Below are positions 11,135-13,187 of a DNA stretch of 13,187 nucleotides, in pieces. A model generated the notes under the pieces. It ran no database searches. It worked only from the letters and a program-made list of their open reading frames with translations, and was not told where the DNA came from. The position numbers and the translations under genes are program-made. Source of the stretch: a virus (Duplodnaviria; Heunggongvirae; Uroviricota; Caudoviricetes); IMG/VR virus record IMGVR_UViG_2778261447_000008, positions 1-13,187 of that record; one strand, written 5' to 3'. How positions within the stretch are numbered: position 1 is the first letter of the stretch; each line of letters begins with the position of its first letter.

Positions 11135-11809
11135 ATGAAAACAATCCATGACATCCGGCGGTCTAACGCCAGAAAACTGAGAGATGGTGTTGGCGGGAAT
11201 TCTTCCTTTGCCACTATGATTGATCGCGAGCCAACCCAGACCAGCAGGTTTATGGGAGATGGTGCTACTAAAAATATCGGTGACAGCATGGCACGACACA
11301 TCGAAAAATGTTTCGACCTGCCTGTCGGATGGCTCGATCAAGAACACCAGACAACGAACATCACAAAAAAACCTGATGTTTCAATCACTAATAAACAAAT
11401 CACATTAGTCCCTGTCATATCATGGGTACAGGCCGGAGCATGGAAAGAAGTTGGATATTCTGAGGTTGATTTGAGCACAGCAGAAACGTATCCCTGCCCT
11501 GTACCCTGTGGGGAAATGACTTATATCTTGCGGGTGATAGGTGATTCAATGATTGATGAGTACCGCCCGGGAGACATGATTTTTGTCGATCCTGAAGTAC
11601 CTGCCTGCCACGGTGACGACGTTATTGCATTGATGCACGATACAGGTGAAACCACCTTCAAAAGGTTGATAGAAGATGGGACACAGCGTTATCTCAAAGC
11701 GTTAAACCCAAACTGGCCTGAGCCTTACATTAAGATCAACGGTAATTGCTCTATAATTGGAACTGTGATTTTCTCAGGAAAACCAAGAAGATACAAAATC
11801 AAAGCCTAA
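11135..11809 (+). CDS. cI: CI-type prophage repressor (helix-turn-helix plus S24 LexA-like peptidase domain)
   Basis: The C-terminal domain closely parallels lambda cI (PVISWVQAG..., GDSM serine motif, TFKRL lysine, ALNPNWPEP vs lambda LNPQYPMIP). The N-terminal DNA-binding domain is divergent, implying a different immunity specificity. Confidence 0.85.
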   Translation: MKTIHDIRRSNARKLRDGVGGNSSFATMIDREPTQTSRFMGDGATKNIGDSMARHIEKCFDLPVGWLDQEHQTTNITKKPDVSITNKQITLVPVISWVQAGAWKEVGYSEVDLSTAETYPCPVPCGEMTYILRVIGDSMIDEYRPGDMIFVDPEVPACHGDDVIALMHDTGETTFKRLIEDGTQRYLKALNPNWPEPYIKINGNCSIIGTVIFSGKPRRYKIKA

Positions 11810-11821
11810 TCAATGTTTATG

Positions 11822-11846
11822 AACCTGCTTCGGCAGGTTTTTTTAT
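11822..11846 (+). terminator. intrinsic terminator downstream of cI
   Basis: Hairpin aacctgc-ttcg-gcaggtt (11822-11839) followed by a run of T (11838-11845), 13 nt after the cI stop. Confidence 0.6.
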
Positions 11847-11848
11847 AC

Positions 11849-11876
11849 TTGACAATGTACCTTTGAGATACATAAT
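11849..11876 (+). promoter_or_regulatory. pL-like strong sigma-70 promoter with overlapping operator
   Basis: Consensus -35 TTGACA (11849-11854), 16-nt spacer, -10 CATAAT (11871-11876). The spacer holds ATGTACCTTTGAGATACAT, which matches the oR palindrome at 14 of 19 positions. Confidence 0.55.
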
Positions 11877-11986
11877 GTACCCAAGAGAAACAACAAACAG
11901 GCAGGACGCCCACGAAGTAGCCGCCTGGGGCATATGAAGTCCAGGATGATTCGTTAGCAACAAAAAAGCGCCCTACAGGACGCTTA

Positions 11987-11998
11987 GCTCTTTAACAA
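11987..11998 (+). promoter_or_regulatory. boxA-like antitermination element (rrn-type)
   Basis: GCTCTTTAACAA matches the rrn boxA core (TGCTCTTTAACAA) at 12 of 12 positions. It sits in the leader about 110 nt downstream of the pL-like promoter, preceded by a small stem-loop (aagcg...cgctt, 11966-11985). Confidence 0.4.
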
Positions 11999-12043
11999 TC
12001 TGGTCCCCATCAACAAGTAACTGATAACTTGAGGAGGTGTGAA

Positions 12044-12250
12044 ATGCACAAAACAGAACCAAAAATCGTCGCGCCCGGATACACAAATGAGGAAATTTAC
12101 GAGTGGATGGCAAAGAAGCTGGCAGCTATAAACCAGCTTCGTGAAGTGCTGTCTTATCGACAGGTAACAATAGACTCCTTAAAAAAACTGGATCAGGAAA
12201 TCACGGTTTTATCACAGGATGTTACTTTAGATATTGTGCAGACAAATTAG
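12044..12250 (+). CDS. small hypothetical protein, first ORF downstream of the pL-like promoter
   Basis: 68 aa from the ATG at 12044, with a strong Shine-Dalgarno GAGGAGG (12031-12037) 6 nt upstream. Not arginine-rich, so not an N-like antiterminator. The track ORF starts 15 nt earlier at a TTG. Confidence 0.55.
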   Translation: MHKTEPKIVAPGYTNEEIYEWMAKKLAAINQLREVLSYRQVTIDSLKKLDQEITVLSQDVTLDIVQTN

Positions 12251-12656
12251 GATCCCATTCATTTTCGTCAAAATCATCAAAGTGATGAATTTGTGATCTC
12301 CAGTCTCGATAATCTAAAAATTTCTGGGCGGTTACGCTTATTTTATCAAGCGTGAGTTCATCCTGAATTGAAAGAAGAAGTTCATCAAATTTCATCTCAT
12401 TAATCTGTTTTGGCATCCAGTGATGCTTCATCAGAATAAGGTGAACCAGAGCTTTTTTCCCATTCAACTGATTATAGGGAGTACCGAATTTCTTCCGGTG
12501 CTCATGTAAGACAAGGTCCAGAAGAGTAAGTAATGTTGCCCTTGATTCAACTTTGCTTATTTCGACTGATGACACTACCCCACTGATTTCAATGCCCCGA
12601 TACTTTCCAACATTTTCACAGTGGGATTTGTACAGCGTATAGATATTACCGGACAT
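12222..12656 (-). CDS. hypothetical protein; AT-rich cargo gene in the immunity region
   Basis: 144-codon ORF with an ATG start, AT-rich. Convergent with the pL-proximal gene, with 29 bp of 3' overlap. No family recognised. Confidence 0.5.
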   Translation of the reverse strand: MSGNIYTLYKSHCENVGKYRGIEISGVVSSVEISKVESRATLLTLLDLVLHEHRKKFGTPYNQLNGKKALVHLILMKHHWMPKQINEMKFDELLLSIQDELTLDKISVTAQKFLDYRDWRSQIHHFDDFDENEWDPNLSAQYLK

Positions 12657-12672
12657 TTCTTTTCCTTTTGCG

Positions 12673-12723
12673 TTGTTGGGGATAACCAGATTAACCGAAT
12701 CCTTGTTGTTGGGGAATAACCAG
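12673..12723. repeat. pair of 17-18-bp direct repeats upstream of the 12222..12656 gene
   Basis: TTGTTGGGGATAACCAG (12673-12689) and TTGTTGGGGAATAACCAG (12706-12723), differing by one inserted A and 33 bp apart start to start. They lie 17-70 bp upstream of the ATG at 12656. Confidence 0.5.
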
Positions 12724-12940
12724 GTCCACCTCGCCTGATGTGGCTAAAAGCAGGCACATAACAGCTAAGTATTTTCAACCAGAGAGAATCCTTAGCGTTG
12801 TGGTGAATGCGGCTCAGCGCACGCGGGTTAAGGTTGAGGCTGACAGTCGACCTTCTGTGGATACCCACCCGTCTGGTGTGCAACCTTCGCCAGGCACCGG
12901 GAGGCACCCGGCACCACAACTTTATGCTGTGTGTAGTCTT

Positions 12941-12987
12941 GACGGTACCAGTTTGTACCCTTGCTTCCGGCTGGTACCGTCCTTTTT
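12941..12987 (+). terminator. strong hairpin with T-tract (candidate intrinsic terminator or structured RNA 3' end), plus-strand sense
   Basis: Perfect 11-bp inverted repeat GACGGTACCAG (12941-12951) / CTGGTACCGTC (12971-12981) with a 19-nt loop, followed by CTTTTT (12982-12987). Confidence 0.4.
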
Positions 12988-13187
12988 ACAAAACAGAGAA
13001 GAGCATCACCGGACGACGGGCTCATAACCCAATCCATCCAGGCGGCAGTCATCGCAGGTGTTCTTCTCTGTTTTGTGGAGAAACTAACCGACCTTGCAGG
13101 GTCGATATGCTGAAGTGGTCAACAAAAACTGGCCACCGAGTTAGAGTTTTTTCCAGTATCGATTTTCCGATTCGTTTGGTGGTAACC

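What the first reader, a model, noticed from the sequence alone, without database searches (positions are those of the whole stretch)
12222..12723. Immunity-region cargo gene with its own upstream direct repeats, convergent with the pL transcript
A 144-aa AT-rich ORF sits on the minus strand directly opposing the pL-driven gene, with 29 bp of 3' overlap. Upstream of its start are two near-identical 17-18-bp direct repeats (TTGTTGGGGATAACCAG and TTGTTGGGGAATAACCAG) about 33 bp apart, which look like paired binding sites for a regulator. Cargo next to the repressor gene is classically expressed in the lysogen (rexAB, sieB), so this is a candidate lysogen-expressed exclusion gene under dedicated control.
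Basis: partly seen in the sequence, partly recalled or inferred. Interest (0 to 1): 0.6.

Follow-up and report, generated by a model that had tools for sequence, protein, structure and literature searches.

The report
Swappable antisense cargo slot in prophage
The 144-aa gene is real, but the repeats upstream of it belong to a standard "socket" beside the prophage repressor that holds several unrelated backwards-facing genes. The gene itself always travels with a small partner gene, in a layout known from prophage defence and self-immunity pairs.

Summary
There is a 144-aa minus-strand ORF at 12222-12656. It overlaps a pL-driven 68-aa ORF by 29 bp. Two near-identical repeats lie at 12673-12689 and 12705-12722.

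The window is an SfIV/e14-type prophage. ORF144 belongs to the uncharacterised "ECs1072 family" (NF033230, PHROG 5286). It has no Pfam, PADLOC, PDB or fold match.

ORF144 is almost always convergent with, and overlapping, a small coiled-coil partner (PHROG 1744/3501). The pair lies antisense inside three different lytic operons: pL, pR and the late operon.

The repeats are not dedicated to ORF144. They sit in a conserved arm shared by at least five unrelated antisense cargo genes in this slot, and they are absent where the slot holds a sense gene (SfV). A third, inverted copy lies at the other end of the cassette. That copy directly follows a perfect rrn-type boxA and a minus-strand terminator.

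My best reading is an exchangeable moron cassette. The right arm would be the cargo promoter and leader. The left arm would be the terminator plus a boxA read-through device. The cargo would be a candidate defence/counter-defence pair analogous to Tai/Ati, though not homologous to it. The function is untested.

The parts
11135..11809 (+). cI-type (LexA/S24 family, YmfK-like) repressor gene
   Evidence: ORF list. It matches NCBIfam LexA/UmuD-type models. It is annotated as cI in SfIV and SfV.
11821..11840 (+). Intrinsic terminator after cI
   Evidence: SfV annotates a terminator at the homologous place.
11849..11892 (+). pL-type promoter (TTGACA, 16 nt, CATAAT; 11849-11876) with two operator-like repeats AATGTACC... 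(11854-11872 and 11874-11892)
   Evidence: The sequence is identical in e14 of K-12.
11956..12725 (.). Exchangeable cassette plus its 'holder'. This is the block that SfV replaces with a different plus-strand gene.
   Evidence: BLAST breakpoints against SfV fall at 11955/11956 and 12725/12726. Alignments show the same.
11966..11985 (-). Intrinsic terminator for the minus-strand cargo transcript (8-bp stem followed by TTTTTTG)
   Evidence: It is conserved at the left end of every holder locus, whatever the cargo.
11987..11998 (+). rrn-type boxA, GCTCTTTAACAA
   Evidence: It is a 12/12 match and the only one in the window. The same 12-mer occurs in the E. coli rrnH leader. It is conserved in all holder loci and absent from SfV and e14.
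11997..12017 (+). Left arm: an inverted, degenerate copy of the repeat (AATCTGGTCCCCATCAACAAG), starting inside the end of boxA
   Evidence: Duplex energy with the right arms is -31.0 kcal/mol against -14.8 +/- 3.2 for shuffles.
12044..12250 (+). ORF68, a small coiled-coil partner gene (PHROG 1744) that is sense to pL
   Evidence: PHROG E-value 2.3e-33. Homologues are convergent with ORF144 homologues in L003, L005, L091 and L119. It is remotely related to the Sb50-type partners of PHROG 3501.
12222..12656 (-). ORF144, an ECs1072-family phage-associated protein. It is all-helical and of unknown function.
   Evidence: NF033230 scores 157.8 bits against a cut-off of 70. PHROG 5286 E-value 1.5e-90. 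The family spans 76 clusters at 50% identity. AF2 model: pLDDT 78, pTM 0.77.
12672..12692 (-). Proximal repeat, forming the right arm (AATCTGGTTATCCCCAACAAC on the minus strand). It lies directly upstream of the ORF144 Shine-Dalgarno. I infer it is the first ~20 nt of the cargo mRNA and the 3' half of a long-range stem in the pL RNA.
12688..12693 (-). TAATCT, invariant in all 38 right-arm variants; candidate -10 of a shared cargo promoter (inferred)
   Evidence: Overlapping TATAAT or GATAAT occurs in L116, L150, L175, L157 and L170. Sakai has TATAAT at the homologous place.
12702..12723 (-). Distal repeat (CCTGGTTATTCCCCAACAACAAG on the minus strand). Its invariant core is ATTCCCCAAC. TTCCCC at 12716-12711 is a candidate -35, lying 17 nt upstream of TAATCT (inferred).
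   Evidence: It is absent from SfV.
12726..12743 (.). Conserved hairpin CCAC-N10-GTGG at the junction with the invariant flank. It is present even in SfV and e14.
12767..12990 (+). STnc100/PasD-like prophage sRNA element. It is a conserved flank and not part of the cassette.
   Evidence: Rfam RF02076 scores 44.7 bits against a gathering threshold of 47, E = 1.8e-8. The family is discussed in bioRxiv 10.64898/2026.05.13.724894.

Best explanation
Window 11956-12725 is an exchangeable moron cassette plugged into a standard slot of e14/SfV/SfIV-type prophages. The slot lies between cI-pL and the early-left genes.

Shown: the slot has a conserved 'holder'. On the pL side the holder has a minus-strand intrinsic terminator, a perfect rrn-type boxA, and a ~20-nt arm. 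On the far side it has an inverted copy of that arm (the proximal repeat), a 15-nt spacer containing an invariant TAATCT, and a second direct copy (the distal repeat). Between the arms sit unrelated genes, always on the minus strand.

Inferred: the right arm is the shared promoter and 5' leader of the cargo. The -35 would lie in the distal repeat, the -10 would be TAATCT, and the proximal repeat would be the start of the mRNA. The left-end hairpin terminates that mRNA. On the other strand, boxA would let the pL transcript read through several hundred nucleotides of untranslated antisense cargo, as boxA does for rRNA and CRISPR arrays. The left and right arms could pair into an rrn-like long-range stem around the cargo.

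Shown: the cargo here is a conserved two-gene unit. ORF144 (ECs1072 family) faces against the lytic operon. ORF68 faces with it. Their 3' ends overlap.

Inferred: ORF144 is made in the lysogen. It is shut down by convergent pL transcription on induction, exactly when ORF68 is made. ORF144 would then be a lysogen-phase effector, most likely anti-phage, and ORF68 its lytic-phase antidote. That would make the pair a defence/counter-defence pair of the Tai/Ati 'non-contiguous operon' type.
For: Cassette limits against SfV are set.

Alternative minus-strand cargos share identical arms: a 171-aa, a 167-aa, a 170-aa and a 150-154-aa 2-TM protein. Across holder loci there are 71 distinct cargo sequences in at least 5 unrelated protein families. 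The largest ORF is on the minus strand in all five real families. Both arms at >=80% coverage occur in 951 of 5426 complete E. coli genomes. The ORF144 cassette itself occurs in 408.

boxA is a 12/12 match. In rrnH the 5' half of the long-range stem starts 0 nt after boxA, which is the same layout as here.

Inverted partners of the post-boxA arm are enriched: 18 of 48 distinct arms score >=20, against 2-4 of 48 in three controls. Unrelated phages carry unrelated 21-34-nt arms in the same arrangement. The arms change together with the cargo (L095, L092, L093, L005).

TAATCT and ATTCCCCAAC are invariant in 38 right-arm variants. Some variants have TATAAT or GATAAT, and Sakai has TATAAT at the homologous position.

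The convergent ORF144-type and partner pair occurs in the pL slot (window, L003, L005, L091, L119), the pR operon (Sakai Sp4) and the late operon (ST64B, Klebsiella KPP5665-2). A Serratia locus whose wider context I did not resolve has it too. The overlaps that I measured are 29-95 bp.

The two partner families are linked (BLASTP 4e-5; hhalign 84%, E = 7.9e-6).

An experimentally characterised precedent for the logic is phi80 taiEcA/atiEcA (PMC11364771).
Against: No canonical sigma-70 promoter scores on the minus strand. The proposed -35/-10 matches only about 6 of 12 consensus positions.

There is no transcript or TSS evidence here. The only expression hint is a microarray entry for ECs1072.

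Among the 97-99% identical ORF144 loci, single substitutions in the arms are not compensated. The right proximal arm stays almost constant while the left arm drifts, which fits a protein site or promoter better than a strict RNA stem.

e14 (ymfJ/ymfI) has an antisense gene in the same slot with no boxA and no repeats. The pR and late-operon copies of the ORF144 pair also lack the holder, so the holder is not required for the pair.

L004 has an ORF144 homologue with no recognisable partner.

ORF144 has no similarity to any known defence, exclusion or toxin protein.
Confidence: 0.5

Rival explanations
1. The two direct repeats are paired operator sites for a DNA-binding regulator that specifically controls ORF144.
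Against: The repeats precede at least 5 unrelated cargos and are missing from distant ORF144 loci, so any regulator is slot-specific and not gene-specific. No candidate regulator is encoded in the cassette. ORF144 is mildly acidic (pI 6.4). The fold hits are at noise level. A third copy in inverted orientation, 680 bp away and changing together with the cargo, is not explained by this model.
Confidence: 0.15
2. The arms are primarily RNA elements. In the pL transcript, boxA plus left arm pairs with the right arm(s) to loop out the antisense cargo. This would be an rrn-like Nus/RNase III processing unit. The direct repeat simply offers two alternative 3' partners. Promoter activity would be secondary or absent.
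For: The rrnH layout is identical. Inverted partners are enriched, and unrelated phages carry unrelated arm sequences in the same arrangement. The duplex energy is well below shuffles on both strands. The left arm is retained even where no plus-strand ORF follows it (L092, L095).
Against: The arms are short (13-21 bp) with bulges. There are no compensatory changes among close variants. The left arms decay while the right arm stays fixed. G-U versus A-C patterns do not favour either strand.
Confidence: 0.2
3. The inverted arms are recombination joints. They would be sites or micro-homologies through which cassettes are exchanged or inverted, with no role in expression.
For: Cargo-specific DNA begins right after AATCTGG on both sides. 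The arms change together with the cargo.
Against: Inverted sites would invert rather than exchange, and no inverted cargo was seen in any locus. The arms do not resemble hix, gix or attC sites (from my own knowledge). No recombinase is associated with them. The strict strand bias of the cargo argues for an expression constraint.
Confidence: 0.07
4. ORF144 and ORF68 are not a defence pair. They could be an addiction or toxin-antitoxin-like module, or a lysis-lysogeny modulator acting on the phage's own development.
For: The tight pairing, the 3' overlap and the opposite expression phases fit any antagonistic pair. There is no defence-family similarity.
Against: The pair sits in polymorphic accessory slots alongside other accessory cargos, including a secreted LprI-like protein and a 2-TM protein with weak similarity to PADLOC 2TM effectors. 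The characterised analogues with this layout are defence systems (PMC11364771, PMC8585504).
Confidence: 0.2

Closest known systems
Tai/Ati (tail assembly inhibition and anti-Tai) of phage phi80 and relatives, arranged as a 'non-contiguous operon' (PMC11364771)
   Same: A small accessory gene lies antisense inside a lytic operon. In phi80 this is the late operon, as it is for the ORF144 homologues in ST64B and Klebsiella phages. An adjacent small sense gene is expressed only in the lytic cycle. The two genes overlap, and the pair moves as a unit.
   Different: There is no sequence relationship. hhalign of the ORF144 family against TaiEcA gives probability 0.4%, and ORF68 against AtiEcA gives none. 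TaiEcA is 204 aa, not 144. In phi80 the pair is divergent with a 5' overlap, whereas here it is convergent with a 3' overlap. The function here is untested.
Classical lambdoid morons and immunity-region cargo (lambda rexAB, P22 sieB, BTP1 bstA; PMC8585504)
   Same: An extra, low-GC gene lies next to the repressor between conserved genes. It has its own terminator and is presumed to be expressed in the lysogen.
   Different: rexAB is co-transcribed with cI, and sieB and bstA are sense to pL (from my own knowledge). Here the cargo is antisense to pL. There is no homology to any of them.
rrn operon leader (boxB-boxA-boxC with the long-range RNase III stem around 16S) and boxA-protected CRISPR arrays
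   Same: The same boxA 12-mer is present, with a hairpin just upstream. The 5' half of a long-range inverted repeat starts at the end of boxA, and its partner lies after a several-hundred-nucleotide untranslated segment.
   Different: The arms here are much shorter than the rrnH stem aligned. The looped segment is antisense mRNA rather than a structural RNA. Neither Nus nor RNase III involvement is shown.
P2/P4 defence hotspots (PMC9122126)
   Same: Both are fixed prophage loci with conserved flanks and highly variable cargo across E. coli genomes.
   Different: This is a different phage family and a different position. The cargos here are single small genes of about 145-175 aa, none recognised by PADLOC. 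The slot also carries a defined promoter, terminator and boxA 'holder'.
e14 ymfJ/ymfI of E. coli K-12
   Same: It occupies the same slot with the same cI and pL, and has a pL-sense small gene convergent with an antisense gene (63-bp overlap).
   Different: The proteins are unrelated. There is no boxA, no repeats and no minus-strand terminator hairpin.

Membership tests
NCBIfam NF033230, ECs1072 family phage-associated protein | Full-length match to the family HMM above the curated cut-off | tested here: met
   The score is 157.8 bits against a cut-off of 70, covering residues 4-144 of 144. The family name carries no functional information ('hypoth_equivalog').
PHROG 5286 (ORF144) and PHROG 1744 (ORF68) | Profile match over the whole protein | tested here: met
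   E-values are 1.5e-90 and 2.3e-33, both full length. Both families are listed as unknown function.
Moron (an extra transcription unit inserted between conserved phage genes) | Absent from otherwise collinear relatives | tested here: met
   SfV and e14 carry other DNA between identical flanks.
Moron | Own terminator | tested here: met
   A minus-strand hairpin plus T-tract lies at 11985-11966. It is conserved with every cargo.
Moron | Own promoter | tested here: inconclusive
   There is no consensus hit on the minus strand. An invariant TAATCT with ATTCCCCAAC 17 nt upstream is a candidate only.
Moron | Base composition differs from the surrounding genome | tested here: met
   GC is 0.379 for ORF144 and 0.401 for the cassette, against 0.462 for the window.
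Tai/Ati defence and counter-defence | Homology to Tai (the published Tai proteins share about 20-74% identity with each other) and to Ati | tested here: not met
   hhalign of the family profile against TaiEcA gives probability 0.4%. The partner profile against AtiEcA gives no alignment. Only the phi80 representatives were available for testing.
Tai/Ati defence and counter-defence | Defence gene antisense within a lytic operon, with an adjacent lytic-phase partner | tested here: met
   This layout is seen in the window, L003, L005, L091, L119, Sakai Sp4, ST64B, KPP5665-2 and Serratia.
Tai/Ati defence and counter-defence | Blocks tail assembly of other phages, with the partner neutralising it | not testable with these tools
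   This needs phage challenge, electron microscopy and two-hybrid assays.
Known anti-phage defence systems (PADLOC-DB 2.0) | Match to any defence-protein HMM | tested here: not met
   There were no hits at E <= 1 for ORF144 or ORF68, and none at E <= 0.01 for the ST64B pair.
rexA, rexB and sieB type exclusion genes | Sequence membership (Pfam families) | tested here: not met
   The Pfam scan returned no family for ORF144 at E <= 1.
rrn-type boxA antitermination/processing leader | boxA consensus GCTCTTTAACAA | tested here: met
   A 12/12 match lies at 11987-11998 and is unique in the window. The same 12-mer is present in rrnH.
rrn-type boxA antitermination/processing leader | The 5' half of a long-range stem directly follows boxA, with its partner beyond the enclosed segment | tested here: met
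   In rrnH the arm starts 0 nt after boxA. The arms here are short and imperfect.
rrn-type boxA antitermination/processing leader | Nus-factor dependent anti-Rho activity and RNase III cleavage | not testable with these tools
   This needs genetics and biochemistry.
Rfam RF02076 STnc100 (flanking element 12767-12990) | Score at or above the gathering threshold | tested here: not met
   The score is 44.7 bits against 47. It is a full-length model match with E = 1.8e-8, so it is probably a diverged member or a PasD-like relative.

The most novel reading that the evidence does not exclude
There are two linked possibilities.

(1) e14/SfV-type prophages, and apparently unrelated phages as well, may use an rrn-mimicking device. 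boxA is immediately followed by one half of a long-range inverted repeat. In these prophages the device would act as a standard 'holder' that lets a lytic transcript run through, and perhaps excise, an antisense accessory cassette. The opposite arm would double as the cassette's promoter and leader. That would be a plug-and-play socket for lysogen-phase genes, present in roughly a fifth of complete E. coli genomes.

(2) The ECs1072-family protein and its small coiled-coil partner may form a new prophage defence/self-immunity pair. It would be controlled purely by convergent transcription, and it has colonised pL, pR and late operons.
Probability: 0.3. Interest if true: 0.75.

Novelty: new variant of a known kind. 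Interest (0 to 1): 0.6.

Why it matters
If this reading is right, one fixed and easily recognised socket (boxA...AATCTGG on one side, CCAGATTAACCGAATCCTTGTTGTTGGGGAAT on the other) marks a reservoir of small, uncharacterised lysogen-phase genes in a large share of E. coli and Shigella prophages. At least five families are seen here. They are ready-made candidates for new anti-phage or host-modifying functions.

The ECs1072-type and partner pair would add a second protein family to the recently described 'defence gene antisense inside a lytic operon plus lytic-phase antidote' logic.

The boxA-plus-inverted-arm layout would be a phage use of the rRNA-operon solution for transcribing long untranslated RNA. 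It is directly testable with nus, rho and rnc genetics.

It also corrects annotation. The ORF144 homologue in ST64B and the partner ORF in Sakai Sp4 are unannotated. Several 'hypothetical proteins' called over the STnc100-like element are probably not genes.

Tried and rejected
1. Function by homology. Pfam, PADLOC and PDB sequence searches, with both the single sequence and a 48-sequence profile, found nothing.

3. Tai/Ati membership was rejected by hhalign.

4. e14 YmfI and YmfJ as homologues were rejected.

5. Looking for diverged loci in IMG/VR with single diverged proteins was unproductive. The alignment-based scan returned only 100%-identical copies.

6. A sigma-54 promoter, an IHF site, integron attC and Hin/Gin-type crossover sites in the repeats were checked by eye against consensus sequences from memory. 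None fits.

7. CsrA (ACAAGGA) and Hfq (ARN-repeat) sites in the leader are possible but could not be tested, so they are not claimed.

8. Compensatory covariation in the arms among the 80 near-identical loci was not found.

9. The idea that the repeats serve the plus-strand STnc100-like sRNA promoter was rejected. SfV and e14 keep the sRNA region but lack the repeats.
Full report
**What the window is.** The right end of the window is 98% identical to Shigella phage SfIV and close to SfV and many E. coli prophages. In SfIV the 144-aa ORF is SfIV_36, annotated as hypothetical. It lies between cI (SfIV_37) and the early-left genes that lead to xis and int. The order on the plus strand is as follows:
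- cI at 11135-11809
- its terminator at 11821-11840
- a strong pL-type promoter at 11849-11876 with operator-like repeats
- a leader region
- a 68-aa ORF at 12044-12250 with a GAGGAGG ribosome-binding site
- ORF144 on the minus strand at 12222-12656

The same cI/pL sequence is present in e14 of E. coli K-12.

**Observation check.** This includes the ORF, the 29-bp 3' overlap, the two repeats at 12673-12689 and 12705-12722, and the low GC (0.379 against 0.462). The repeats are kept in 38 sequence variants of the region from other loci, so they are not chance.

**A conserved convergent gene pair.** In diverged homologous loci, the ORF144-type gene is again convergent with, and overlapping, a small plus-sense ORF:
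- E. albertii, 72% identity (L003)
- a metagenome contig, 52% identity (L005)
- Serratia, 35% identity (L008)
- an IMG/VR contig (L091)
- L119
- Salmonella phage ST64B, where the 144-aa ORF is unannotated and overlaps Sb50 (L089)
- Klebsiella phage KPP5665-2 (L090)
- E. coli O157 Sakai Sp4, the family's namesake, where the partner ORF is unannotated (L224)

The overlaps that I measured range from 29 to 95 bp. The partners fall into PHROG 1744 (ORF68 type) or PHROG 3501 (Sb50 type). The two types are linked by BLASTP (E = 4e-5) and by hhalign (84% probability, E = 7.9e-6) through a shared motif, roughly P-x-x-x-x-E-E/Q-x-x-E/D-W followed by a coiled coil.

The pair sits in three different lytic operons, and the ORF144-type gene is always antisense to the operon. 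The slots are downstream of pL (window, L003, L005, L091, L119), between the cII-like gene and the replication gene in the pR operon (Sakai), and in the late operon upstream of the holin gene (after Q in Klebsiella phage KPP5665-2, and at the corresponding position in ST64B). One locus (L004) has the ORF144-type gene antisense downstream of a repressor without a recognisable partner.

**The repeats belong to the slot, not to the gene.** SfV shares the flanks but replaces window 11956-12725 with a plus-strand gene (orf33) and a plus-strand terminator. It lacks both repeats. Searching complete E. coli genomes with the cassette gave 408 genomes with the whole cassette. About 680 more matched only its ends.

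Those loci carry other minus-strand genes between the same ends:
- a 171-173-aa coiled-coil protein with a Cys-rich C-terminus
- a 167-aa protein
- a 170-aa secreted protein with weak LprI similarity
- in IMG/VR contigs, a 150-154-aa two-TM protein with weak similarity to PADLOC '2TM effector' models (E about 0.01)

The minus-strand sequence upstream of each cargo is identical through the distal repeat and the spacer AAGGATTCGGTTAATCTGG. The proximal repeat is retained in front of three unrelated cargos and partly lost in one. In a survey of all held loci with boxA and the distal-repeat core within 1.5 kb, there are 71 distinct cargo sequences. They fall into five real protein families, and the largest ORF is on the minus strand in every one. 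Both arms at >=80% coverage occur in 951 of 5426 complete E. coli genomes.

Conversely, the ORF144 pairs in the pR and late-operon slots, and e14's ymfJ/ymfI in this very slot, have no such repeats. It is therefore met for the distant homologues, while close homologues in this slot keep the repeats.

**Anatomy of the 'holder'.** At the pL side, every holder locus has three elements:
- a hairpin that is a good intrinsic terminator on the minus strand only (11985-11966, then TTTTTTG)
- GCTCTTTAACAA (11987-11998), a 12/12 match to the rrn boxA and unique in the window
- starting within the last bases of boxA, an arm AATCTGG..., which is an inverted copy of the proximal repeat

The arms change together with the cargo:
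- L092: left AATCTGGATATCCACAACAG, right AATCTGGATATCCCCAACAAC
- L095: AATCTGGATGACT on both sides
- L093: left AATCTTAGTATCCCCGTAAC, right AATCTTGATACCCCCAATAAC
- window: left AATCTGGTCCCCATCAACAAG, right AATCTGGTTATCCCCAACAAC

Among 48 distinct post-boxA arms, 18 have an inverted partner scoring >=20 within 1.2 kb downstream. The three controls (direct orientation, or the upstream DNA) give 2-4.

Unrelated phage contigs (L113, L171, L189) show boxA followed by quite different 21-34-nt arms, with inverted partners 250-800 nt downstream. Some are arranged in tandem promoter-boxA-arm-ORFs-arm units.

I verified on E. coli rrnH that the 5' half of the long-range 16S stem starts 0 nt after boxA. 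The layout is therefore the same as in rRNA operons. In the window the arms can form a duplex of -31.0 kcal/mol on the plus RNA (shuffles -14.8 +/- 3.2; 1 of 500 reach it). On the minus RNA the value is -27.1 kcal/mol (4 of 500).

**A candidate cargo promoter.** Across the 38 right-arm variants, TAATCT (window 12693-12688, minus strand) is invariant. The two bases before it vary. Several loci read TATAAT or GATAAT in the overlapping register, and Sakai has a perfect TATAAT at the homologous position. ATTCCCCAAC of the distal repeat is invariant 17 nt upstream.

This suggests a weak sigma-70 promoter with three features:
- the -35 lies in the distal repeat
- the -10 lies in the spacer
- transcription starts in the proximal repeat, about 25-30 nt before the ATG

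The consensus scan does not pick this promoter up, so it remains an inference.

**Mechanistic reading.**

Shown:
- cassette exchange at fixed joints
- the strand bias of the cargo
- the terminator, boxA and three-copy arm architecture
- the conserved convergent pair

Inferred:
- The right arm would be the promoter and leader, and the left hairpin the terminator, of a lysogen-phase minus-strand transcript.
- boxA would protect the pL transcript from Rho while it crosses untranslated antisense cargo. The arms could pair as they do in rrn operons.
- On induction, pL transcription would collide with and silence ORF144 while producing ORF68.

This is the logic shown experimentally for phi80 taiEcA/atiEcA. 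There, a constitutively expressed defence gene lies antisense in the Q-dependent operon next to a lytic-phase counter-defence gene (PMC11364771). The phi80 proteins are unrelated to ours, and that pair is divergent rather than convergent. I therefore file the pair as working like Tai/Ati, not as a member of that family.

**Weaknesses.**
- There are no transcript data, apart from ECs1072 appearing in a Sakai microarray list.
- The promoter is weak by consensus.
- Substitutions in the arms among near-identical loci are uncompensated.
- The right arm is nearly constant and has a palindromic GGATATCC core, while the left arms drift. This is also what a protein-binding site would look like.
- The holder is dispensable for the pair elsewhere.
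- The biochemical function of ORF144 is unknown.

**Verdict.** The gene family is already named yet uncharacterised. The slot, its holder and the conserved antisense pair are, as far as my searches of the held literature show, undescribed. Those searches cover only the held library, not the whole literature. I score interest at 0.6 and classify it as a new variant of a known kind: a prophage moron or defence candidate in a non-contiguous-operon layout.

Noticed in passing
window 12767-12990 (+): An STnc100/PasD-like prophage sRNA element gives a full-length Rfam match just below the gathering threshold (44.7 against 47 bits). It ends in a terminator-like hairpin with a weak DicF-like hit at 12928-12982. 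It is conserved in SfV, e14 and all slot variants. A candidate plus-strand -10 (CATAAC, 12757-12762) lies just upstream.
   Followed up: partly
window 12575-12919 (-) and 12740-13027 (+): ORFs annotated as hypothetical proteins in SfIV (SfIV_35, SfIV_34), and as a 'frameshifted' pseudogene in RefSeq E. coli genomes, overlap the STnc100-like element. They have no family support and are probably not genes.
   Followed up: partly
L171, L189, L113 (IMG/VR contigs): Unrelated phages carry tandem units of strong promoter, boxA, a 21-34-nt arm, small plus-strand ORFs and the inverted arm. This suggests that 'boxA plus long-range stem' is a general phage transcript-organising device.
   Followed up: partly
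L096 5498-6085 (E. coli K-12 e14): ymfJ and ymfI occupy the same slot behind the same cI/pL. They are convergent with a 63-bp overlap but unrelated in sequence to ORF68 and ORF144, and they lack boxA and the repeats. ymfI is preceded by an extended -10-like TGGTATGCT.
   Followed up: partly
L224 14117-14852 (E. coli O157 Sakai Sp4): ECs1072 (now ECs_5703) lies antisense in the pR operon between the cII-like gene and the replication gene. A convergent partner ORF with the ORF68/Sb50 motif is not annotated.
   Followed up: partly
L089 3281-3715 (+) (Salmonella phage ST64B): A complete 144-aa ECs1072-family ORF is unannotated in ST64B. It is antisense to the late genes upstream of the holin gene, overlapping Sb50 by 71 bp.
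   Followed up: yes
L092, L093, L095, L148, L104 (same slot, other cargos): Four further uncharacterised minus-strand cargo families occupy the slot. They are a 171-aa coiled-coil protein with CxxC...CxxC, a 167-aa protein, a 170-aa secreted protein with weak LprI similarity, and a 150-154-aa two-TM protein. The two-TM protein is preceded by a Pro-rich mini-ORF and has weak similarity to PADLOC 2TM effectors.
   Followed up: partly
window 11889-11955 (+): The pL leader between the operators and the cassette stays conserved even in loci whose immunity region differs. Homology breaks at 11889-11892, right after the -10.
   Followed up: no
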